Assembly (NCBI GenBank): GCA_964409675.1
Contig: CAYPEF010000004.1
Location: 1-46,001, forward strand
Source: an uncultured Rickettsiales bacterium
Lineage (GTDB): Bacteria > Pseudomonadota > Alphaproteobacteria > Rickettsiales > SXRF01
Direction of reading: 5' to 3'
DNA: 46,001 nt
Under the pieces are notes generated by a model that worked only from the letters and a program-made list of their open reading frames with translations, was not told the DNA's origin and ran no database searches. The translations under genes and the position numbers were made by a program. Position 1 is the first letter of the stretch, and every line of letters starts with the position of its first letter. Shown one piece after another: positions 1 to 29,144 of this stretch.

Positions 1-14
1 CTTTCACTTTCGCG

Positions 15-41
15 TTGACAAAAACCCAAAAAGGTTATGCT
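15..41 (+). promoter_or_regulatory. candidate sigma70-type promoter reading toward the RT gene (TTGACA 15-20, TATGCT 36-41, 15-nt spacer)
   Basis: Perfect -35 hexamer and a 4/6 -10 hexamer, read directly. The spacer is at the short end of the functional range. Confidence 0.3.
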
Positions 42-249
42 CGCCACGGAGGTGTTTATGAAAGTTGCCACATGCAAAAACGTGCCAAGCCCAGCTTGGC
101 GCGGGCTAGTTTCGGGCTCACGCTCGGAGCTGTCCTTCTTTCCTTCTCTTGCGGCGGGTCGCCAGTCGAAGCCGACCGTATAGCAGAGGGTGACCGTGTA
201 GCGATAAGCGATGCGGGCTCAGTCGCCTACAAGCCACTGAGGGAAATGG
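42..249 (+). ncRNA. candidate structured leader / non-coding RNA upstream of the reverse transcriptase
   Basis: No convincing protein in this stretch. Strong hairpin at 81-103 (10 bp including one G-U pair, 3-nt loop). GGGCTCA occurs three times (113-119, 214-220, 281-287). The position relative to the RT resembles ncRNA-RT defence loci. Not folded computationally. Confidence 0.3.
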
Positions 250-1578
250 ATGCACGTTGGCGAGCGGGGTTTACCGTGGGGGCTCAGACCAGTTATGGAA
301 CGAAAGAATCGGCTATTCGACAAAATCCGTACTGAGCGCGCGCTTAGGCGTGCGTGGTCAAAAATATATGAAAATGGCCAGCGTTCTGATTCGAAAGAAA
401 CCCAGCGGCTCATCAACGAATTTAAGCAGGCTGAAGATATCAATCTTCGCCTCCTGACAAAGAAATTAAGAAATAAGAATTTTGATTTCGGCCCCGTGCG
501 CGGTGTGGCCGCAAAGAAAAAAAGCGGCAAACTACGACCCATTGTTTCTGCGGCAGTAGAAGCGCGGATCGTTCAGCGCGCGATCCTTGAAGAACTGTCC
601 ACGCGCAAAGAAATCAAAAAATACTTTCATGTGCCCACTAGCTTCGGCGCTATTCCTGGCAAAGGTGTACCGGAGGCAGTCAAAGCTGCTGTAGCTGCCA
701 TTCAGAATGGAGCGACGCATTACATCAAATCCGATATTGCAGACTTCTTTACGAAGATACCACGGGCGCAGGTCGTGCAGCAAATAAGCGCAGCTTGGAA
801 TGACGATGACTTCAGGCAATTGCTGGAAAAATGTACCAACTTGGAAATCGACAATTTGGCAGATTTAGAGCGTAAGCATGGTTCTGCATTCCGGGATATG
901 TTCGTCTTTGATCAGACGGGCGCGCCGCAGGGCTGCTGCTTATCGCCATTAATCGGCAACATCCTACTGCATGAATTCGACGAGCAAATGAATAGTGCCG
1001 ATATTACCTGCCTTCGCTATCTCGACGATTTCATCATATTTGGTCCCAGCTACGCGGCAGTACGGGGCGCTTACAAAAAGGCGCAGCGTTTGTTAGGAAA
1101 ACATGGCTTACAGGCATACGATCTCGATACCCAAAAAGATAAAACTGGCCAAGGCGAGGTCAAAAAGCCTTTCGAATTCCTTGGCGTGGAATTCCGAGAC
1201 AAAGACCTCCGGCCATCGCTGGCATCGAAAGATCGTATGATCACCGCCATACGAGAAATATTGGGCAGCGTGCTGAAGAAGTCAGATGCCCCGGAACATC
1301 TGAGTCTCGTTAGCGCCTTGTATATGATTGGCAACAAAATCCGAGGATGGGGTAATCAGTATAAATTCTGCAATGATGAACGGTTCATGGGCTCCATAGA
1401 TGCAGAGATCACTCAATTGATAGTACCATTCTTCTTCAAATTTACTGGTGAAATTAAAGCCTTCGATCAAAAGCAACAGCGCCAAATGATCGGGGTCTGG
1501 TCGCTGGAAAATTGTAAAAAAGAGCCAATTAATTTCGATAATACAGTGCCGCATATCGGTGAAACGAAACAGAAATGA
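250..1578 (+). CDS. reverse transcriptase, group-II-intron-like, stand-alone (no endonuclease domain)
   Basis: RT motifs in order: RPIVSAAVEARIVQRAIL (1), SFGAIPGKGVPEAV (2), YIKSDIADFFTKIP (3), GAPQGCCLSPLIGNILL (4), RYLDDFIIFG (5, YxDD), FEFLGVEF (7). Thumb-like IRGWGNQYKF follows. GAGGGA lies 5 nt before the ATG at 250. An alternative start is ATG 295 (MERKNRLF). Confidence 0.9.
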   Translation: MHVGERGLPWGLRPVMERKNRLFDKIRTERALRRAWSKIYENGQRSDSKETQRLINEFKQAEDINLRLLTKKLRNKNFDFGPVRGVAAKKKSGKLRPIVSAAVEARIVQRAILEELSTRKEIKKYFHVPTSFGAIPGKGVPEAVKAAVAAIQNGATHYIKSDIADFFTKIPRAQVVQQISAAWNDDDFRQLLEKCTNLEIDNLADLERKHGSAFRDMFVFDQTGAPQGCCLSPLIGNILLHEFDEQMNSADITCLRYLDDFIIFGPSYAAVRGAYKKAQRLLGKHGLQAYDLDTQKDKTGQGEVKKPFEFLGVEFRDKDLRPSLASKDRMITAIREILGSVLKKSDAPEHLSLVSALYMIGNKIRGWGNQYKFCNDERFMGSIDAEITQLIVPFFFKFTGEIKAFDQKQQRQMIGVWSLENCKKEPINFDNTVPHIGETKQK

Positions 1579-1593
1579 AGCGAATTTCGCTTC
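1577..1593 (+). terminator. hairpin overlapping the RT stop codon (GAAGCG-aattt-CGCTTC)
   Basis: Perfect inverted repeat read directly. No clear downstream U-tract, so terminator function is uncertain. Confidence 0.3.
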
Positions 1594-1748
1594 TATAAGC
1601 GCATGTATGAAGCAATATCAATTGCTTGAATTGCTAAAAACGAAACGAAATGCAAATTAGAAATTCTGTCGCTAGCGAAATGGCGGGCTAAAGCTGCCCG
1701 TATAGAGATCGCGCCGGAAGGACCCAAGAGTTCAACCCATAGGCATAG

Positions 1749-1930
1749 GGTAGCAAAGGTAGCAAGGTAGCGCGACTCTATCTGCGACTATTGTTATAGG
1801 TTTGTGCGGCGATGTGTCGCTCTTAATCGCATGCGATATTGATGTATGATGGGTGCTACCCGCTACCTCGCTACCTTTGCTACCTAACACGCACCGAAAG
1901 GGTAGCAGCATTAGCGGGGTAGCGGGTAGC
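1749..1930. repeat. iteron-like array: 10 copies of GGTAGC/GCTACC in three orientation blocks
   Basis: Forward copies at 1749, 1758, 1766. Reverse copies at 1855, 1862, 1870, 1879. Forward copies at 1901, 1918, 1925. GGTAGCAAAGGTAGC (1749-1763) is the exact reverse complement of 1870-1884. An AT-richer core lies between the blocks. Confidence 0.75.
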
Positions 1931-11023: not shown

Positions 11024-11915
11024 ATTTATATCCCTCAAACCATCCCAGCATCCGCTTCTGCACGTCGCCCCAATGGCGTGTCAGCGCATGGTTGCCGCCG
11101 GGGTAGATGACCAGCTCATGCGGATTGCCCGCCTCGCGCAGGCCTTCGGCTAGGCGCATAGAGTCGGATACATCCACCTTATCGTCCGCATCGCCGTGCA
11201 GCAGCAGCAGCGGCACAGTCAGCGCCTCCGGCCAGCATACCGCCGAGCGCGCGCGAAAGGCTTCTTCATACGCCCCGCCCTCCCCCGCGATCAACTGGCG
11301 GTACACGCCCGGTCCCATCTCCGGTCTGCGCTCCACGCTGTCGAACAAATCCGCCACCCCGGCAATAGAAACGGCGGCATTCAGCTGTGCACCCTCCCGA
11401 ATGGAACGATACGTCATCATCCCTCCGCGCGAATGGCCAACCATGAAGGCGTTTTTCCCGTCCCAACCCGAATGCAGGCGCGCGAGCTCCAGCAGGTTCA
11501 GCACATCATTCACGTCCGCGCCGCCGAATTCCTCCCGCCCCTCGCCCCCGGCATTGCCGCGGTAATTGGAGGCAAACACCAGGTAACCTGCCCGCGCCAG
11601 CGGCACCAGCATCTGCATTACCGTATAGAGCGTGAGCCTGCCATATTCCCGGTTTCCGCCGCGATTATAGATGACAATCGGGTACATTTTCCGGCCCACC
11701 TCCGCCGGCAGCGCCATCAGCCCGGTCACGCACAGGCCGTCGCTTGCGTAAGCCATCTCGCTTACTACCACATCCGGCGTTGCCTGATAGAGTGCCTGCA
11801 TGCGTGCATACGCCAGCTCCGGCACCGCGCCAGGCGGCAATGCGCCGGAAACATCCAAGGCAGCAAAGTCCTCTGGGATAAAAGATTTCTGCTCCAACAG
11901 GCGAAAACCGCTCAC
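11016..11915 (-). CDS. alpha/beta hydrolase (S9 peptidase / dienelactone hydrolase-like)
   Basis: Nucleophile elbow VGHSRGG, acid [11 protein letters not shown], His GGNHAL. Its start overlaps the yejB stop. Confidence 0.8.
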
Positions 11916-13012
11916 GCCCCCCTCCGCTCGAAATCAATGCGCGGATCCACCAGCGAATAGGTGATATCCCCCAGCAGCCCCAGCAACAACCCAAGCAGGG
12001 TGAAAATATACAGCGTGCCGAACACCACCGGGTAGTCGCGCCCCACCACCGCCTCATACCCCAGCAGCCCCAGCCCATTGAGCGAGAAAATGATCTCGAT
12101 CAACAGTGCCGAGGTAAAGAAGATGCGCAGTAATGCCGAGGGAAATCCGGCGATCACGATCAGCATGGCGTTGCGAAACACATGCCCGTACAGCACGCGC
12201 CGTTCGCTTAAGCCCTTAGCCCGCGCGGTGGTGACGTAGAGCTTATGAATTTCATCCAGAAAGCAGTTCTTGGTCAGCATGGTGAGGCTCGCGAACCCGC
12301 CCACCACCATCGCAGTAACCGGTAAGGCGATATGCCAGAAATAATCGGTAATCTTGTGCGGCCAGTTGAAGCTCTCCCATTCATCCGAAGTGAGTCCTTT
12401 CAGCGGAAACCAGGTGAAATAATTCCCGCCCGCGAACAGCACAATCAGCAAAATGGCGAACAGGAAACTCGGAATCGCATAACCGATGATAATCAGCGTG
12501 CTGCTCCACACATCGAAGGGAGTGCCGTCCTTCACCGCCTTGCGAATGCCAAGCGGAATGGAGACGAGATAGATAATCAGCGTCGTCCATAAGCCCAGCG
12601 ACATGGTGACCGGCAGCGTCTGCCCGATCAGGCCGATCACGCTGGCATTGCGGTAGAAACTGTCGCCGAAATCGAAGCGCAGGTAATTGCCGATCATGCC
12701 GAAAAACCGCTCCATCGGCGGCTTGTCGAACCCGTACATTTTCTCGATGCGGGCCACCAGCTCCGGGTCCAGCCCGCGCGCGCCGCGGTAGATGCTCTCG
12801 GCAGTCGCCATTTGCGCCCCACCGCCTGCCGCAAAATCCGATCCCCCGCCGCCGATGCGGGCGGTGGAATCCATGTTGAGATGGGTAAGAGACGCCACCA
12901 TCTTCTCCACCGGCCCACCGGGTGCCGCCTGCACGATAAAAAAATTCAGCGCCATGATGCCAAACAGCGTCGGGATCATCAAAAGCAGGCGACGGATGAT
13001 ATAGGCGGTCAT
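11912..13012 (-). CDS. yejB: ABC transporter permease (YejB-like)
   Basis: [34 protein letters not shown] is the classic DppB/OppB/YejB N-terminus. Confidence 0.85.
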
Positions 13013-13105
13013 ACAAAAACCCTGTGATACGAGAAGGTGAGACTATCCCGGTTTCAATAAAAATCAATCCCATGAAAGCATTCGGAATTAGCTTCTTTAT
13101 TTCTT

Positions 13106-13202
13106 CGTCATTCCCCGAATCGCGTAGCGATTATAGGGGAATCCATGCCACACCCTTCACTGGATTCCCCTATAATTTCACTTCGTGAAATTCGGGGAAT
13201 GA
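13106..13202. repeat. composite nested-palindrome intergenic element (GTCATTCCCCGAAT ... ATTCGGGGAATGAC)
   Basis: Outer inverted repeat 13106-13119/13189-13202. Inner inverted repeat TATAGGGGAATCCA/TGGATTCCCCTATA. Two further small palindromes. Confidence 0.8.
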
Positions 13203-13219
13203 CAAGTTAATCAAACCAC

Positions 13220-14638
13220 TTAGGCATCCCCCAGCGCGGCAAAGGCAATATTCACCCGTAACCCCGGCCCATTATCCTCCAGCTGGATATGCGCATTATG
13301 AATCCGCGCCACCGCCGCCACCAGGCTTAATCCCAGCCCATTACCCTTGGTATTGCGGCTGAATTCCATGCGGAAGAATTTCTCAAACACTTTCTCCCTA
13401 AATTCCAGCGGGATGCCGGGACCGGTATCGGTGATAATCACCCGCACTGTCTCCTCCTCGCGCTTCGCCAGCACGCGGATTTCGCCGCCTTCTGGTGTAA
13501 ATTTCACCGCATTGTCCAGAAGATTGGCGAAGGCTTGCGTAAGCAGATGCTTCTCGCCTTCGATGCGCAGCTCCTGCTGCACTTCGGTGACCAGCGCGAT
13601 ATGCTTCTCCGCCATCATCGGTTCATAAAATTCTACCAGATTGGCCAGCAGCGCCGTTAAATCGCATGGGGCGAAATCGCGGAAATCAGTATTGGCCTCC
13701 AGCTCGGAGATTTTCAAAATGGAATTAAAGGTGGCAATCAGCTCGCCCATCTCGCGCACGTTATTCTCCAGCAGCCTCCTCACCGCGCTGTTCTCGCGCA
13801 CGCCGCGCAAGCCCGCCTCGGTACGGCTCACAATGCGGTTTAAGGGGCTGCGCAGATCATGCGCGATATTATTGGCAAAATCCTTGAGCGATTTCAGCAG
13901 CGTCTCGATTTTATCAAGCATCTCGTTCAAATTGGCGGACAGCTCATCAAACTCATCGCCGCCGCGCGTATAGGGAATGCGCGCGCCCAGGTTGCCATGC
14001 ATGATGGTGTGCGCCGAGCGGTTGATGATGTTAATACGCCGAATCACGCTGCGCGTAATCACCACCGCGCCGCCAAATGCCATTAAAATGGTCACGATCA
14101 GGCTCGCCCAAAACGTCTGGATAATCGTTTGCTCGATTTTCTTCTGATCCTGCAGGCTCTGCCCCACCAACAGCGAGCGCCATTTGGAGAGCGGAATGGT
14201 GATCGCTTTCACCTCAATCGGCGCCGGGTTGCTGCGCGTGCCCTCGATGGAAAACCGCACCCATTCGCCGCCCTTGTCGATGCTGCCTTCCTTCACCGCA
14301 TATTGCGGCCAGGCCTCCAGGTTTCCCGCCAACCGCTCACTCTCGCGGTTGATGAGCAGATATATCTCCGAGCCTTCCGTATCGCTGGCAATCAGCCCCG
14401 CAATGCGCTGCTCCACCCCGGCGGAGCCATTTTCGCGGTATTCATTCAGCAGATGCTGGTACTGCACGCGGATGGATTCGGCAATCTGGCTCTCCATGTA
14501 CCTGCGCGCCGAGCTGTAGGTAAAGCCAAACAACAGCACCACCGAAAACGAAAACAGCGCCACATAAATCAGCGCCAGGCGGAAGGTGAAGGTGTGCAGG
14601 AGGCGGGACAGGCGGGAGAGCATGGAATATAATACCAT
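13220..14638 (-). CDS. sensor histidine kinase (2 TM, HAMP, HisKA, HATPase_c)
   Basis: H-box FANNIAHDLRSPL, N-box LLDNAVKFTPEGG, G1 DTGPGIP, G2 GNGLGLSLV. Confidence 0.9.
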   Translation of the reverse strand: MVLYSMLSRLSRLLHTFTFRLALIYVALFSFSVVLLFGFTYSSARRYMESQIAESIRVQYQHLLNEYRENGSAGVEQRIAGLIASDTEGSEIYLLINRESERLAGNLEAWPQYAVKEGSIDKGGEWVRFSIEGTRSNPAPIEVKAITIPLSKWRSLLVGQSLQDQKKIEQTIIQTFWASLIVTILMAFGGAVVITRSVIRRINIINRSAHTIMHGNLGARIPYTRGGDEFDELSANLNEMLDKIETLLKSLKDFANNIAHDLRSPLNRIVSRTEAGLRGVRENSAVRRLLENNVREMGELIATFNSILKISELEANTDFRDFAPCDLTALLANLVEFYEPMMAEKHIALVTEVQQELRIEGEKHLLTQAFANLLDNAVKFTPEGGEIRVLAKREEETVRVIITDTGPGIPLEFREKVFEKFFRMEFSRNTKGNGLGLSLVAAVARIHNAHIQLEDNGPGLRVNIAFAALGDA

Positions 14639-14697
14639 GCTTCATGAGCAAGTTGTCAAAGGAAAGCGAGTTGCTGCAGCATACTTAAGTTGATGCG

Positions 14698-15801
14698 CTA
14701 TGCCCGGGTTTTTCCCTGCTCACGCCCACGCATATGCTCCATTACGGTTGCGAATGTATGCGCTGCGCATTGAGCCGCCGCATAGGACAGCCCCCTGCCG
14801 ATACCGTCGCTGACGCAGGCAGCAATCGGCTTGCCTTTGCCTTTGCGTATATCAGGGATCACAATGATGCTTTGATTGTCTTGTGAGCATAACATGGCAG
14901 CATCCATCAACGCCTGCGCCGGATGGACACCCATCTGCTGGTGCTGAAGCGCCGCCTGCAAATGGTTAGCAATGCCATATGTCCTTAACCCTTCGATACC
15001 ATCCGACGCCAGCACCAGCGACACCGTAAGCCTCCCTTTATCCATATGATAATATTCCGCCATCCCATCAATCGCGGGCTGCAATTGAAAACATACGTCG
15101 GAATTCGTATTGGATTGCAACCTATATGCCGGAACGGAATTATCCACCGTATAGGCAATCCGCGAAGGGTGATTGATTTGCGTATATGAATGCACCCCCG
15201 TCACTTTCCCATCCGCATCCCGGCTCTGTCCGGCGGCATTGATGCGAATTGCCTCCGGCCTTTTCACACCGTCGCTCAGCACCAGATAGGCCGGACTGTC
15301 CCCAATGGTGCCAAGCTCGATGGAGAAGCTTTCGGGATCATATAAAAGCATTGTGCATGTGGCGCCGCCTCGCTTGATTGTATGAATGCGCGACAACGGT
15401 GTTTCATAGGCTCTTTTCAGCTCCTCCGGGGCGTCTGGGTGCACCGTGTGGTTTTCCCGCATAAACCCCAGCTCATTTAAGGTACGTCTTGCCTTATCTT
15501 GCGCATACCAGCCTGGCGTTTCCAGTTCCTTATACATATCAGATGCCTGCTCCATCATGGCATCAAACAGCTTATACATGGTTTTTTTATAATTCTGCGG
15601 AGAAATCCCTTCGGCGCTTGTCACGGCATAGCGGTCATGCTGGCGATCATAACGCTTGCCCGCTTCGTTAAAATCCTGCGCCATATAGACATCCTGCTCA
15701 CCAAAATGCAGGATATGCTTTGAGGGAGGCATTGGCGTTTCCAGCGATTGCATGAGGCCGGGAAGTGCATCCCGCAATGTCTGGTCCAGCGATAATGGCA
15801 C
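14698..15801 (-). CDS. divergent PP2C-like phosphatase-fold protein
   Basis: Colinear PP2C-like motifs: RQHDRYAV, TSAEGISPQ (in place of ADGMGGH), GGATCTMLL, IGDSPAYLV, LASDGIEGL, DNQSIIVI. No signal peptide seen. Confidence 0.5.
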   Translation of the reverse strand: MPLSLDQTLRDALPGLMQSLETPMPPSKHILHFGEQDVYMAQDFNEAGKRYDRQHDRYAVTSAEGISPQNYKKTMYKLFDAMMEQASDMYKELETPGWYAQDKARRTLNELGFMRENHTVHPDAPEELKRAYETPLSRIHTIKRGGATCTMLLYDPESFSIELGTIGDSPAYLVLSDGVKRPEAIRINAAGQSRDADGKVTGVHSYTQINHPSRIAYTVDNSVPAYRLQSNTNSDVCFQLQPAIDGMAEYYHMDKGRLTVSLVLASDGIEGLRTYGIANHLQAALQHQQMGVHPAQALMDAAMLCSQDNQSIIVIPDIRKGKGKPIAACVSDGIGRGLSYAAAQCAAHTFATVMEHMRGREQGKTRA

Positions 15802-15810
15802 GCTTGCTTC

Positions 15811-16482
15811 TTACGCCACCAGCCGGTAGCCCGCGCCGCGCAATGTCTGGATCAGCGTTTTTTCGAATCCCTTATCAATCTTCTGCCGAAGCCGTGAGAT
15901 ATGCACGTCGATCACGTTAGTCTGGGGGTCAAAATTATAGTCCCATACCTGCTCCAGCAGCATGGTGCGCGTCACCACCGTGCCGGCATGGCGCATCAAA
16001 TATTCCAGCAGCTGGAATTCGCGCGTCTGCAAATCGATCTCCTTGCCTGCCCTGCGCACGGTGCGCGAGAGCAAGTCCATTTCCAGTTCGCCGCAGGTAA
16101 GTTTCGTCACCGCTTTCTCGCCGTGCTTGCGCCGGGTGATGGTCTCCAGCCGCGCGAGCAATTCGGTGAAGGAATAGGGCTTCACCAGATAATCATCCGC
16201 CCCGCTTTTCAATCCCTTCACCCGCTCCTCCACCTTGTCGAGCGCGGTGAGGATCAGGATCGGCGTTTCATTGCCCGAGGCCCGTAGCGTATGCACGATG
16301 GTAAGCCCGTCCACCTCCGGCACCATGCGGTCCACGATCATCGCGTCGTACTGCTCGGAGGCGGCCATGAACAGCCCTTCCTTGCCGGATTCGCAATGAT
16401 CCACCACATAGCCCTGCTCGCGCAGGCCTTTCAGCAGGTACTGCACGGCTTCTTTATCGTCTTCGATAAGGAGGAGTTTCAT
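15811..16482 (-). CDS. OmpR-family response regulator
   Basis: Receiver motifs LLIEDD, IVDRMVPEVDG, LTALD, KP. Winged-helix region REFQLLEYLMRHAG...VIDVHISRLRQKI. Confidence 0.92.
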   Translation of the reverse strand: MKLLLIEDDKEAVQYLLKGLREQGYVVDHCESGKEGLFMAASEQYDAMIVDRMVPEVDGLTIVHTLRASGNETPILILTALDKVEERVKGLKSGADDYLVKPYSFTELLARLETITRRKHGEKAVTKLTCGELEMDLLSRTVRRAGKEIDLQTREFQLLEYLMRHAGTVVTRTMLLEQVWDYNFDPQTNVIDVHISRLRQKIDKGFEKTLIQTLRGAGYRLVA

Positions 16483-28755: not shown

Positions 28756-29144
28756 TTATCGATAGCTCCGCCGTCATGGCCATCCTGATGGATGAACCGG
28801 AAGCCAAACGTTTTGCGCTGGCAATTGCACACTCGCCGCGACGCTCCATGTCATCGGCGACATGGCTGGAAGTCAGCATGGCCATTACCCTGCGCCATGG
28901 CGAAGAAGGCGTGCGCAGCTTCGATCTGCTTGCCGCCAAGCTGGAACTGGCCATTATTCCTTTCACTCATATACACGCCACCATCGCGCGGCGCGCCTTT
29001 ATCCGCTACGGCAAAAGCCTTCACACCGCCCGGCTGAACTTCGGCGATTGCATGGCCTACGCACTGGCCAAAGAAACCGGCGAGCCGCTCTTATTCAAAG
29101 GCGAGGATTTCTCCCGAACCGATATCGAAGCCGCCCCGTATTAA
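28752..29144 (+). CDS. vapC: PIN-domain ribonuclease toxin VapC
   Basis: MIIDSSAVMAIL (first acidic residue), ...NFGDCMAYALA (late acidic residue). About 130 aa. Confidence 0.85.
   Translation: MIIDSSAVMAILMDEPEAKRFALAIAHSPRRSMSSATWLEVSMAITLRHGEEGVRSFDLLAAKLELAIIPFTHIHATIARRAFIRYGKSLHTARLNFGDCMAYALAKETGEPLLFKGEDFSRTDIEAAPY

What the first reader, a model, noticed from the sequence alone, without database searches (positions are those of the whole stretch)
1..1594. Stand-alone group-II-intron-like reverse transcriptase with a long non-coding leader, carried as cargo on an integrative element
The 442-aa ORF has all seven RT palm/finger motifs and a maturase-like thumb (IRGWGNQYKF). It has no endonuclease domain, and I find no group II intron domain V hairpin in the 370 nt downstream. 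It is convergent with the element's replication genes, which is the position defence cargo occupies on phage satellites and islands. At least 230 nt upstream has no convincing protein. That stretch starts with a TTGACA/TATGCT promoter-like pair, contains a 10-bp hairpin (81-103) and repeats GGGCTCA three times. Established ncRNA-templated RT defence systems (retrons and several DRT classes) have exactly this promoter-ncRNA-RT layout. This RT's motifs (YLDD, FLGVEF, RGWxNxY) are intron-like rather than retron-like. No effector gene is visible on this side, so the RT-RNA pair may be the whole system, or a partner may lie left of the window. I cannot assign it to a named class without a search.
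Basis: partly seen in the sequence, partly recalled or inferred. Interest (0 to 1): 0.8.

Follow-up and report, generated by a model that had tools for sequence, protein, structure and literature searches.

The report
G2L4-type reverse transcriptase with twin-repeat leader

Summary
The ORF is real, but homologues start at ATG 295, giving 427 aa. It is not an unclassified RT. Sequence (PDB 9d5x/9d4s, E 3e-61) and predicted fold (TM 0.8) place it in the G2L4 family, the free-standing group II intron-like RTs shown to repair double-strand breaks. It belongs to a YLDD sub-clade; most members have YIDD.

The leader is real and more conserved than the gene (92% versus 70% nucleotide identity to the nearest full locus). 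It is the downstream part of the "two long direct repeats (LDR) plus ~240-bp spacer" module noted once for Pseudomonas G2L4. The window starts inside the spacer and holds only LDR2.

In 48 loci from many phyla:
- The two LDRs are about 100% identical within a genome but diverge freely between genomes.
- Each LDR folds into three hairpins.
- Two long-range helices (a/a', b/b') covary, with wobble pairs that fit only the sense strand.
- A frame through LDR2 stays open in 36 of 39 loci, and its length varies only in multiples of 3. The conserved SD-ATG lies one frame away, before an invariant C_AAA_AAC, which suggests a -1 frameshift.

No neighbouring gene is conserved. The defence and template-RNA reading is neither supported nor excluded.

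The parts
1..134 (+). 3' part of the conserved ~230-nt spacer that lies between the two long direct repeats. The window starts inside it. LDR1, helix arms a and b, and promoter P1 lie left of position 1.
   Evidence: Alignment with L084, L003 and L004, which carry LDR1-spacer-LDR2. Window 1-132 is 85-94% identical to their spacers.
15..41 (+). Internal promoter-like pair P2: TTGACA, 15 nt, TATGCT, with a conserved A5 tract between the hexamers.
   Evidence: T15, A29-32, T36, A37 and T41 are nearly invariant in 49 loci. The consensus scanner does not call it because the spacing is 15 nt.
48..60 (+). Shine-Dalgarno GGAGG (48-52) plus ATG (58-60), starting a short leader frame (MKVATCKNVP...).
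   Evidence: An SD-preceded ATG or GTG lies in this frame 8-26 nt upstream of the A-rich motif in 39/39 loci. Upstream ATGs fall 46:7:1 in favour of this frame.
75..81 (+). Invariant heptamer C_AAA_AAC, within GCAAAAACGTGCC (74-86). It is the candidate -1 frameshift site between the leader frame and the long open frame.
   Evidence: Nucleotides are invariant across phyla with no synonymous variation. Variants seen are T_AAA_AAC, A_AAA_AAC and T_AAA_AAG. In 11 loci the downstream frame has no other access.
81..103 (+). Conserved hairpin, 9 bp (CGTGCCAAG / CTTGGCGCG).
   Evidence: The equivalent hairpin is predicted, with compensatory changes, in 23 other loci (pairs 361-366/378-383).
72..335 (+). 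Small open frame (-1 relative to ATG 58). It encodes a basic N-terminus (QKRAKPSLAR), a hydrophobic helix (FGLTLGAVLLSF) and about 60 aa encoded by LDR2 and the sequence after it. The stop TGA at 333-335 overlaps the RT start.
   Evidence: The frame is stop-free from the motif to the LDR2 end in 36/39 loci, versus 0/39 and 12/39 for the other frames. Its length varies only in multiples of 3 (21/21). Hydrophobic segment. No Pfam family matches.
135..254 (+). LDR2, the second copy of the ~120-nt long direct repeat. It is predicted to fold into three hairpins.
   Evidence: 91-93% identical to both LDR copies of L084 and L003. Fold of the window copy. 38/48 LDRs fold into exactly three hairpins.
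259..267 (+). a' (GGCGAGCGG), the 3' arm of a long-range helix. Its partner a directly follows LDR1, outside the window.
   Evidence: The a/a' helix covaries in 31 loci, with G-U wobbles on the + strand. In L084, a is CTGCTCGCC and a' is GGCGAGCAG.
274..285 (+). b' (CCGTGGGGGCTC), the 3' arm of the second long-range helix. Its partner b sits in an internal loop of a spacer hairpin, outside the window. b' covers the G-run upstream of the RT start.
   Evidence: Core of the b/b' helix, 8 bp: 98.4% of cells are paired versus 23-50% in slid controls, and 8/8 pairs show compensatory changes.
295..1578 (+). Reverse transcriptase gene of the G2L4 family (427 aa). The active site is YLDD and the thumb carries GWGNQYKFCN. 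There is no DNA-binding or endonuclease domain.
1577..1593 (+). Perfect 8-bp hairpin (GAAGCGAA-T-TTCGCTTC) overlapping the RT stop codon. It may mark the end of the transcript, but no T-run follows it.
   Evidence: (I11).

Best explanation
Window 1-1594 is the downstream two-thirds of a G2L4-type module.

The full module, seen in relatives, runs in this order:
1. Promoter P1.
2. LDR1.
3. Helix arm a.
4. A hairpin carrying arm b.
5. Internal promoter P2.
6. SD-ATG leader.
7. C_AAA_AAC heptamer and hairpin.
8. A small ORF whose C-terminal part is encoded by LDR2.
9. Arms a' and b'.
10. The RT gene.

Shown here:
- The RT belongs to the G2L4 family, in a YLDD sub-clade.
- The leader is transcribed-strand structured RNA.
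- The two LDRs are kept identical within each genome.
- One reading frame through LDR2 is kept open.
- No neighbouring protein is conserved.

Inferred by homology: the RT is a DNA-repair polymerase that does microhomology-mediated end joining and translesion synthesis, as P. aeruginosa G2L4 does. Here it is carried as cargo by a P4-like integrative island.

Inferred from anatomy:
- The sense RNA is a cis-regulator and/or a bound partner of the RT. Helix a/a' places an identical LDR at the 5' end of each of its strands. This is a two-fold symmetric arrangement that would suit the homodimeric G2L4 enzyme.
- Arm b' overlaps the purine run before the RT start. Pairing, or ribosomes translating the small ORF through LDR2, a' and b', would therefore gate RT translation.
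- The small ORF is most likely entered by a -1 frameshift. It encodes a small membrane or secreted protein of unknown role.
For: RT identity:
- phmmer against the PDB gives G2L4 RT 9d5x/9d4s at E 3e-61 over the full length, versus 8e-16 for a true group II RT.
- The AF2 model (pLDDT 89) best matches 9d4s, TM 0.78-0.81, versus 0.66 for GsI-IIC.
- P. aeruginosa G2L4 is 82% identical to the L076 RT from the same homologue set and 35% identical to the window RT.
- The RT0 serines are conserved, the acidic E184 is invariant and the RT3a insertion is present.

Module:
- An LDR pair with a period of about 350 nt lies upstream of the RT in 48 of about 66 loci. This matches Park et al. 2022.
- The window leader is 92% identical to L084, whereas the RT nucleotide sequence is 70% identical.

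RNA:
- b/b' and a/a' covary.
- G-U versus A-C cells count 44:11, 8:1 and 108:7.
- 38/48 LDRs fold into three hairpins.
- P1 lies at a fixed position in 26/46 loci versus 3/46 controls.
- Published TGIRT-seq shows 20-fold higher sense-strand coverage over the LDRs than over the RT ORF.

Concerted evolution: LDR cores are 100% identical within a locus and 60-95% identical between related loci.

Small ORF.

No conserved partner gene.

Published functional hints:
- Co-expressing the LDRs changed G2L4-dependent survival without changing protein level.
- The G2L4 apoenzyme is a homodimer.
Against: - The family hallmark YIDD is YLDD here, and only one of the two RT3a arginines is kept. DNA-repair activity was shown for a 35%-identical enzyme only.
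- Nothing here shows that the RT binds the RNA.
- The symmetric-dimer idea explains why the two LDRs are similar, but not why they are 100% identical.
- Evidence for the small ORF is comparative only. The excess of third-codon-position changes is weak (36-39%). The hairpin begins at the last base of the heptamer, too close to act as a classical frameshift stimulator. C_AAA_AAC is not a canonical X_XXY_YYZ site.
- About a quarter of family members lack the module, so the RT can exist without it.
- In this clade the module lies in island cargo next to restriction-modification and similar genes, which fits a defence role equally well.
Confidence: 0.6

Rival explanations
1. RNA-templated anti-phage system. 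The RT copies part of the LDR RNA into cDNA. Helix a/a' closes a template loop made of the spacer plus LDR2, and the LDR repeat allows template jumping as in DRT2. The small membrane protein is the abortive-infection effector.
For: - There is a structured sense RNA with a closing helix, reminiscent of retron a1/a2 and the DRT2 template loop.
- There is a hidden small basic-hydrophobic protein, similar in kind to the membrane effectors of retrons, DRT9 and DRT10 (PMC12632851).
- The window, L083 and L084 carry the module in island cargo. In L084 it lies next to an R-M system, and Fic is encoded in both L083 and L084.
- PADLOC RT_UG17 and UG4 hits have E 2e-34 and 2e-29.
- LDR identity could come from cDNA-mediated gene conversion.
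Against: - The closest characterised enzyme is a DNA-repair polymerase.
- Neighbours across 80 loci are not consistently defence genes; they include gyrA, gyrB, polA and SHMT.
- The repeat period is not a multiple of 3 (343, 351, 352, 371 ...), so a DRT2-style never-ending ORF is excluded.
- LDR mismatches show no adenine-specific pattern.
- No cDNA data exist.
Confidence: 0.2
2. Toxin-like addiction or regulatory cassette. The leader is essentially a type I toxin-antitoxin-like unit: a small hydrophobic peptide whose translation is held back by long-range mRNA folding and an overlapping leader ORF, as in hok/mok. It stabilises the island, and the RT is merely co-transcribed.
For: - There is a short SD-ATG leader ORF overlapping a hydrophobic-peptide ORF.
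- Long-range helices are present.
- Natural solo-LDR deletion variants have lost the ORF's 5' half but keep the RT.
Against: - In this sample of 80 RT-anchored loci the leader lay immediately upstream of the RT gene in all 48 loci with an LDR pair. LDR modules without an RT were not searched for in the public collections.
- Arms a' and b' abut the RT start.
- No antisense RNA gene is evident.
- The peptide sequence is poorly conserved.
Confidence: 0.1
3. Degenerate or ORF-bearing mobile group II intron, or a retron or DGR that was not recognised.
For: - The group II RT/maturase model TIGR04416 matches at 156 bits.
- The thumb is maturase-like.
- Direct repeats next to an RT superficially recall DGR TR/VR.
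Against: - The 156 bits fall below the 300-bit cut-off, and retron and Drt models score far below their cut-offs.
- Rfam finds no intron, retron or other family in the window, in the L084 unit at E<=10, or in 8 other loci.
- There is no endonuclease domain.
- LDR mismatches lie at the repeat edges and are not at adenines.
- LDR1 is not inside a target gene.
Confidence: 0.03

Closest known systems
G2L4 reverse transcriptase of Pseudomonas aeruginosa (Park et al. 2022, bioRxiv 10.1101/2022.03.14.484287; structures 9d5x/9d4s, bioRxiv 10.1101/2025.01.14.632616)
   Same: - Free-standing RT of about 420 aa with an N-terminal extension/RT0 loop, RT2a, a long RT3a and a thumb, and no D/En domains.
- Best sequence and fold match.
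- Preceded by two long direct repeats separated by about 240 bp.
- Found on horizontally transferred DNA near tyrosine recombinases.
   Different: - Only 35% identical.
- YLDD instead of YIDD.
- RT3a is 3 aa longer and has ER instead of RR.
- The LDR sequence is unrelated at the nucleotide level.
- The published work treats the LDRs as DNA repeats in Pseudomonas only. The family-wide structured RNA, the a/a' and b/b' helices, the concerted evolution and the small ORF are not described in the three G2L4 papers held in the library.
Mobile group II intron-encoded proteins (e.g. GsI-IIC RT, LtrA)
   Same: - Same RT superfamily and domain order.
- The thumb resembles the maturase X domain.
- By analogy, they bind a structured RNA encoded around their own gene and use it to autoregulate translation (LtrA binding to DIVa; established knowledge).
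   Different: - No ribozyme domains and no endonuclease.
- The RNA lies wholly upstream and contains a perfect internal direct repeat.
Retrons, DRT2, DRT9 and DRT10 (UG17): RT plus ncRNA defence systems
   Same: - Promoter, structured RNA and RT in that order.
- A closing helix made by inverted segments (a/a'), comparable to retron a1/a2.
- Possible small membrane protein partner.
   Different: - A different RT clade, with scores far below the family cut-offs.
- No SLATT, effector or Neo-type ORF.
- No template evidence.
- The RNA is about 550 nt with a duplicated ~120-nt module.
IS1 and dnaX -1 programmed frameshift sites (A_AAA_AAC, A_AAA_AAG; from my own knowledge)
   Same: An A-rich heptamer ending in AAC lies at the junction of a short SD-initiated frame and a longer -1 frame.
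   Different: The first base is C in most loci. The hairpin directly abuts the heptamer. Frameshifting is inferred, not measured.

Membership tests
G2L4 reverse transcriptases | Closest sequence and fold relative is G2L4 rather than intron-encoded or defence RTs | tested here: met
   PDB phmmer gives 211 bits (E 3e-61) for G2L4 versus 61 bits for GsI-IIC. Foldseek gives TM 0.78-0.81 for 9d4s versus 0.66. PaG2L4 falls inside the same homologue set. No formal tree with curated G2L1-5 sets was built.
G2L4 reverse transcriptases | Free-standing gene without intron RNA and without D/En domains | tested here: met
   No Rfam intron family. Pfam finds RVT_1 only, in a 427-aa protein.
G2L4 reverse transcriptases | Conserved YIDD at the active site | tested here: not met
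   The window and its close relatives have YLDD. The census of 81 family RTs gives YIDD 65, YLDD 10, YMDD 1.
G2L4 reverse transcriptases | RT0 loop with conserved serines | tested here: met
   S31 and S33 are nearly invariant in 43 homologues and align with the SSS of PaG2L4.
G2L4 reverse transcriptases | RT3a knot: insertion with two arginines (R190, R191) and an upstream acidic residue (D182) | tested here: inconclusive
   The insertion is present and 3 aa longer. The acidic E184 is invariant. The aligned residues are E-R instead of R-R. The knot itself cannot be predicted; the authors report that AlphaFold misses it.
G2L4 reverse transcriptases | Two ~140-bp long direct repeats plus a ~240-bp spacer upstream (about 70% of Pseudomonas members) | tested here: inconclusive
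   The window holds LDR2 and 134 nt of the spacer, and LDR1 would lie left of position 1. The nearest full loci (L084, L003, L004) have both copies.
G2L4 reverse transcriptases | [quoted passage not shown] | not testable with these tools
   Needs genetics and biochemistry.
Mobile group II intron IEP | Gene lies in domain IV of an intron with domains I-VI; RT/maturase model above its cut-off | tested here: not met
   TIGR04416 scores 156 bits against a 300-bit cut-off. No Intron_gpII or D1-D4 hits.
Retron | Retron-type RT plus msr/msd | tested here: not met
   The best retron model scores 57 bits against a 235-bit cut-off. No Rfam retron RNA hit.
DRT10 / UG17 | ncRNA, SLATT protein and RT with YVDD | tested here: not met
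   No SLATT or any other conserved neighbour. The active site is YLDD. The PADLOC RT_UG17 hit of 117 bits has no curated cut-off.
DGR | TR/VR repeats that differ at adenines, with VR at the end of a target gene | tested here: not met
   LDR mismatches lie at the repeat edges and involve all bases. LDR1 is intergenic.
DRT2 | Template loop whose concatenated cDNA forms a continuous ORF | tested here: not met
   The repeat period is not constrained to multiples of 3.

The most novel reading that the evidence does not exclude
G2L4 'stand-alone' RTs are really three-part modules: a ~550-nt RNA with two identical three-hairpin units held in a symmetric scaffold, a small membrane or secreted protein reached only by a -1 frameshift and partly encoded by one of the repeats, and the RT. 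The RT acts on or through this RNA as bound cofactor, template or switch. The perfect identity of the two repeats would be maintained by an RT-linked copying or annealing process. The natural solo-LDR deletions would be the switched state.
Probability: 0.25. Interest if true: 0.85.

Novelty: new variant of a known kind. Interest (0 to 1): 0.62.

Why it matters
G2L4 is the textbook case of a domesticated bacterial RT that works alone as a DNA-repair polymerase. If most family members are embedded in a conserved RNA-plus-small-protein module, then the native regulation, substrate or even purpose of these enzymes is incompletely understood.

The module is compact (about 1.9 kb) and found in many phyla, and this analysis gives precise mutations to test:
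- compensatory changes in a/a' and b/b';
- changes to the A5 heptamer;
- deletion of LDR1.

It also offers two further cases of interest. One is concerted evolution of a ~120-nt repeat next to an enzyme that anneals microhomologies. The other is a possible new bacterial frameshift site.

Tried and rejected
- **Source contig.** An exact-protein look-up found only a 3-kb contig with 25 nt upstream. An exact DNA search of genome contigs found nothing. The sequence left of position 1 could therefore not be read.
- **Known RNA families.** Rfam found nothing at gathering threshold in the window or in 8 loci, and nothing at E<=10 in a full unit.
- **DGR-like mutagenesis.** Rejected.
- **DRT2-like never-ending ORF.** Rejected by the repeat-period test.
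- **G-quadruplex in the G-rich part of the spacer.** Present in only 7/48 loci, so dropped.
- **Lipoprotein reading of the small ORF.** LSFSC does not fit the lipobox. No Pfam family matches.
- **First view of the motif.** I initially read 'ATGCAAAAACGTGCC' as a purely RNA/DNA motif and the ORF as spurious. I revised this after the stop-codon, multiple-of-3 and start-codon tests.
- **Covariance model of the LDR.** A model built from the alphaproteobacterial/acidobacterial-type LDRs does not detect LDRs of other clades or of the window. LDR homology across clades therefore rests on position and fold, not on sequence.
- **Duplex-energy z-scores for a/a'.** Weak (mean -1.8). The column-wise covariation test was used instead.
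- **Minus-strand terminator reading of hairpin 84-100 plus T5.** Considered, but the wobble statistics favour the + strand.
Full report
**1. What is in the window.**
- ORF 250-1578 (+) is real. Pfam finds an RVT_1 domain (residues 89-315, E 5e-26), a sub-threshold maturase-domain match and nothing else.
- About 40 aligned homologues of 405-445 aa all begin at the position of ATG 295 (MERKNRLF), so the gene is most likely 295-1578, 427 aa.
- Rfam finds no intron or other RNA family in the window apart from a tRNA.
- Downstream lie a cluster of GGTAGC iterons, then on the minus strand a DUF3987 replication protein, a Toprim-type primase and a tyrosine integrase, followed by tRNA-Ser(tga).

**2. 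Which RT it is.**
- Against all PDB sequences, the best match by far is the 'group II intron-like 4' (G2L4) RT of P. aeruginosa: 9d5x/9d4s, E 3e-61, residues 5-401 aligned to 2-403. A genuine intron RT (GsI-IIC) scores E 8e-16.
- An AlphaFold model built on 43 homologues (pLDDT 89.3) matches 9d4s with TM 0.78/0.81 and GsI-IIC with 0.66.
- Curated models reject membership of group II RT/maturases (156 bits against a 300-bit cut-off), retrons and Drt2-5.
- PADLOC gives a generic RT hit, then RT_UG17 at 117 bits. UG17 is DRT10, which needs a SLATT protein and has YVDD (PMC12632851). Neither applies here.
- The homologue set retrieved from 185,579 species genomes contains canonical G2L4. PaG2L4 is 82% identical to the P. 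avellanae member and 35-48% identical to the rest, including the window RT at 35%.
- Features that Park et al. and the structure paper list for G2L4 are present: no D/En domains, RT0-loop serines, a long RT3a with a conserved acidic residue, and a GWG..F.FCN thumb.
- Two features differ. The active site is YLDD rather than the 'distinguishing' YIDD (10 of 81 family members have YLDD). Only the second of the two RT3a arginines is kept.
- The family comprises 335 clusters at 50% identity with E<=1e-30.

**3. The leader is part of a known but unexplored feature.**
[quoted passage not shown] Sense-strand RNA coverage over the LDRs is 20-fold higher than over the ORF. Co-expressing the LDRs changed G2L4-dependent survival without changing protein level.
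- Aligning the window with its nearest full loci shows the same layout. These are L084 (77% aa identity), L003 (78%) and L004 (66%). Each has two ~120-nt repeats with a period of 351 nt.
- The window starts inside the spacer and retains only LDR2, at about 135-254.
- The 294-nt leader is 92%, 88% and 80% identical to these three loci. The RT coding sequence is 70%, 70% and 63% identical.
- Across 80 loci, 48 of about 66 with enough upstream DNA have an LDR pair: repeats of 108-194 nt, spacer of 207-299 nt, and 33-96 nt between the LDR2 end and the RT. They come from Alpha-, Beta-, Gamma- and Deltaproteobacteria, Nitrospira, Acidobacteria, Bdellovibrionales and other phyla.

**4. It is a structured sense-strand RNA.**
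- LDR sequences are almost unalignable between clades (mean column identity 25%). Even so, 38 of 48 fold independently into exactly three hairpins.
- Two long-range helices are conserved. Arm a directly follows LDR1 and pairs with a', which directly follows LDR2. Arm b lies in an internal loop of a spacer hairpin and pairs with b', a few nucleotides after a' and about 330 nt away from b.
- For b/b' (8 bp, 31 loci), 98.4% of cells are paired versus 23-50% when the partner is slid by 1-3 columns. All 8 pairs show compensatory changes. There are 65 double-change cells versus 19.8 +/- 3.4 in shuffles.
- The a/a' core also covaries: 12 of 15 pairs have compensatory changes.
- Wobble pairs point to the strand. 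G-U cells outnumber A-C cells 44:11 (a/a'), 8:1 (b/b') and 108:7 (local hairpins). The folded molecule is therefore the RT-sense strand, which agrees with the published RNA-seq.
- A sigma-70-like promoter ends 5-13 nt before LDR1 in 26/46 loci versus 3/46 control windows (the tool also calls it in L084).
- No Rfam family matches the unit.

**5. The two repeats evolve in concert.**
- After trimming the repeat edges, LDR1 and LDR2 are 100% identical in most genomes. Orthologous LDRs of related loci are only 60-95% identical; for example, L003 versus L004 is 78% between loci and 100% within each.
- Mismatches sit at the repeat edges and show no adenine bias, which excludes a DGR-like process.
- A covariance model of one clade's LDR found single copies at the LDR2 position in six loci that lack a pair.
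- L059 reads P1 - LDR - a' - b' - RT, and its LDR is nearly identical to that of the double-LDR locus L069. This is exactly the product of LDR1xLDR2 recombination.
- Homogenisation and deletion between the repeats therefore both happen in nature. Whether RecA or the RT drives them is unknown.

**6. The leader is not simply non-coding.**
- The frame that starts at the C of the invariant CAAAAAC is free of stop codons from there to the end of LDR2 in 36/39 loci. The other two frames are stop-free in 0/39 and 12/39.
- In 21 loci of one broad clade, the distance from this motif to a landmark in the third LDR hairpin takes seven values, 153 to 171 nt. All are multiples of 3.
- The product has a basic N-terminus, a hydrophobic stretch of about 18 residues (Kyte-Doolittle above 1.6 in 27/40) and about 40 residues encoded by LDR2. 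In at least 13 loci the stop codon falls 1-5 nt after the repeat ends.
- An ATG in this frame exists in only 22/39 loci. In 11 loci no canonical start can reach the frame at all; in L040 a TAG directly precedes CAAAAAC.
- By contrast, all 39 loci have a Shine-Dalgarno plus ATG or GTG 8-26 nt upstream in the +1 frame, and that frame always terminates early.
- The simplest reading is a programmed -1 frameshift on N_AAA_AAC. IS1 uses A_AAA_AAC (my own knowledge).
- Caveats: the third-position excess is weak, the heptamer is not canonical, and the hairpin abuts it.
- In the window, the SD is at 48-52, the ATG at 58, the heptamer at 75-81 and the stop at 333-335, which lies 40 nt inside the RT gene.
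- The product matches no Pfam family.

**7. Context.**
- Pfam scans of the two nearest ORFs upstream (127 ORFs, 126 families, at most 2 members each) and of the nearest ORF downstream, plus five further ORFs from the closest relatives' loci (82 ORFs, 77 families, at most 3 members each), show no conserved partner.
- Neighbours range from integrases, resolvases, KAP NTPases, AbiEii-like ATPases and R-M genes to gyrA, gyrB, polA and SHMT.
- The conserved unit is therefore the leader plus the RT.
- In the window's own clade, three of five loci (window, L083, L084) place it on integrase-bearing elements. The window and L084 also carry DUF3987. In L084 it lies next to an R-M system, and L083 and L084 encode Fic proteins elsewhere in the island's cargo.

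**8. How it most likely works.**
- Shown: family identity, a structured sense RNA, concerted repeats, a maintained ORF and the absence of a partner gene.
- Inferred by homology: the RT is an MMEJ and translesion repair polymerase.
- Inferred from anatomy:
  - Helix a/a' carries an identical LDR on the 5' end of each strand. This two-fold symmetric display fits the homodimeric enzyme.
  - Arm b' covers the purine run before the RT start. Ribosomes translating the small ORF run through LDR2 and, in this window, through a', b' and the RT start. Folding and translation of the leader probably gate RT synthesis or activity.
- I put 0.6 on this package: about 0.9 on identity and about 0.4 on the mechanism.
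- The defence and template rival (0.2) is not excluded. The closing helix, the repeat that would allow template jumping, the small membrane protein and the cargo position all fit it. However, no cDNA evidence exists and the neighbourhoods are not consistently defensive.

**9. Novelty.**
- The RT is a divergent member of a characterised family, so the finding is not a new class.
- What appears undescribed in the searchable literature is the nature of the leader. Only one paper mentions the LDRs.

**10. Limits.**
- There is no wet-lab evidence.
- LDR1 of this locus is unseen.
- The gene calls used for neighbours were crude.
- No formal RT phylogeny was built.

Noticed in passing
window 1749-1930: The hexamer GGTAGC occurs 10 times in 182 nt, as three inverted clusters (3 on +, 4 on -, 3 on +). 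The cluster lies between the RT stop and the DUF3987 replication gene. It is probably the iteron/origin region of the integrative element.
   Followed up: partly
window 28928-29015 (-): ARAGORN calls a tRNA-Thr(ggt) here, but Rfam's tRNA model does not reach threshold at this site. It may be a false positive or a degenerate tRNA.
   Followed up: no
L019:7030-7910: This Bdellovibrionales locus carries three LDR copies (a 506-nt self-match with a period of 376 nt) instead of two, so the repeat number can expand as well as collapse.
   Followed up: no
L059:7775-8000; also L041, L063, L071, L073, L074: These are solo-LDR variants: promoter, a single LDR, a', b', then the RT. They lack the spacer, the A-rich motif and the 5' half of the small ORF. 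They look like LDR1xLDR2 deletion products.
   Followed up: partly
L084:5500-9424 and 11418-16478: The closest full relative has the RT module wedged between a DNA methylase/Vsr/MvaI-BcnI restriction system and a DUF3768-DUF3987-integrase block. Further along are HEPN_AbiU2 and HNH genes. This is a defence-island-like cargo region on a related element.
   Followed up: partly
L080:7385-8000 (Pseudomonas fluorescens HK44): Here the A-run has four A's (ATGCAAAACGTGCC), the two LDRs are only 88% identical and the spacer is 299 nt. The leader frame reads straight through and stops at the LDR2 start. The Pseudomonas version of the module may therefore be organised differently or be decaying.
   Followed up: no
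window 1577-1593: A perfect 8-bp palindromic hairpin overlaps the RT stop codon, with no T-run after it.
   Followed up: no
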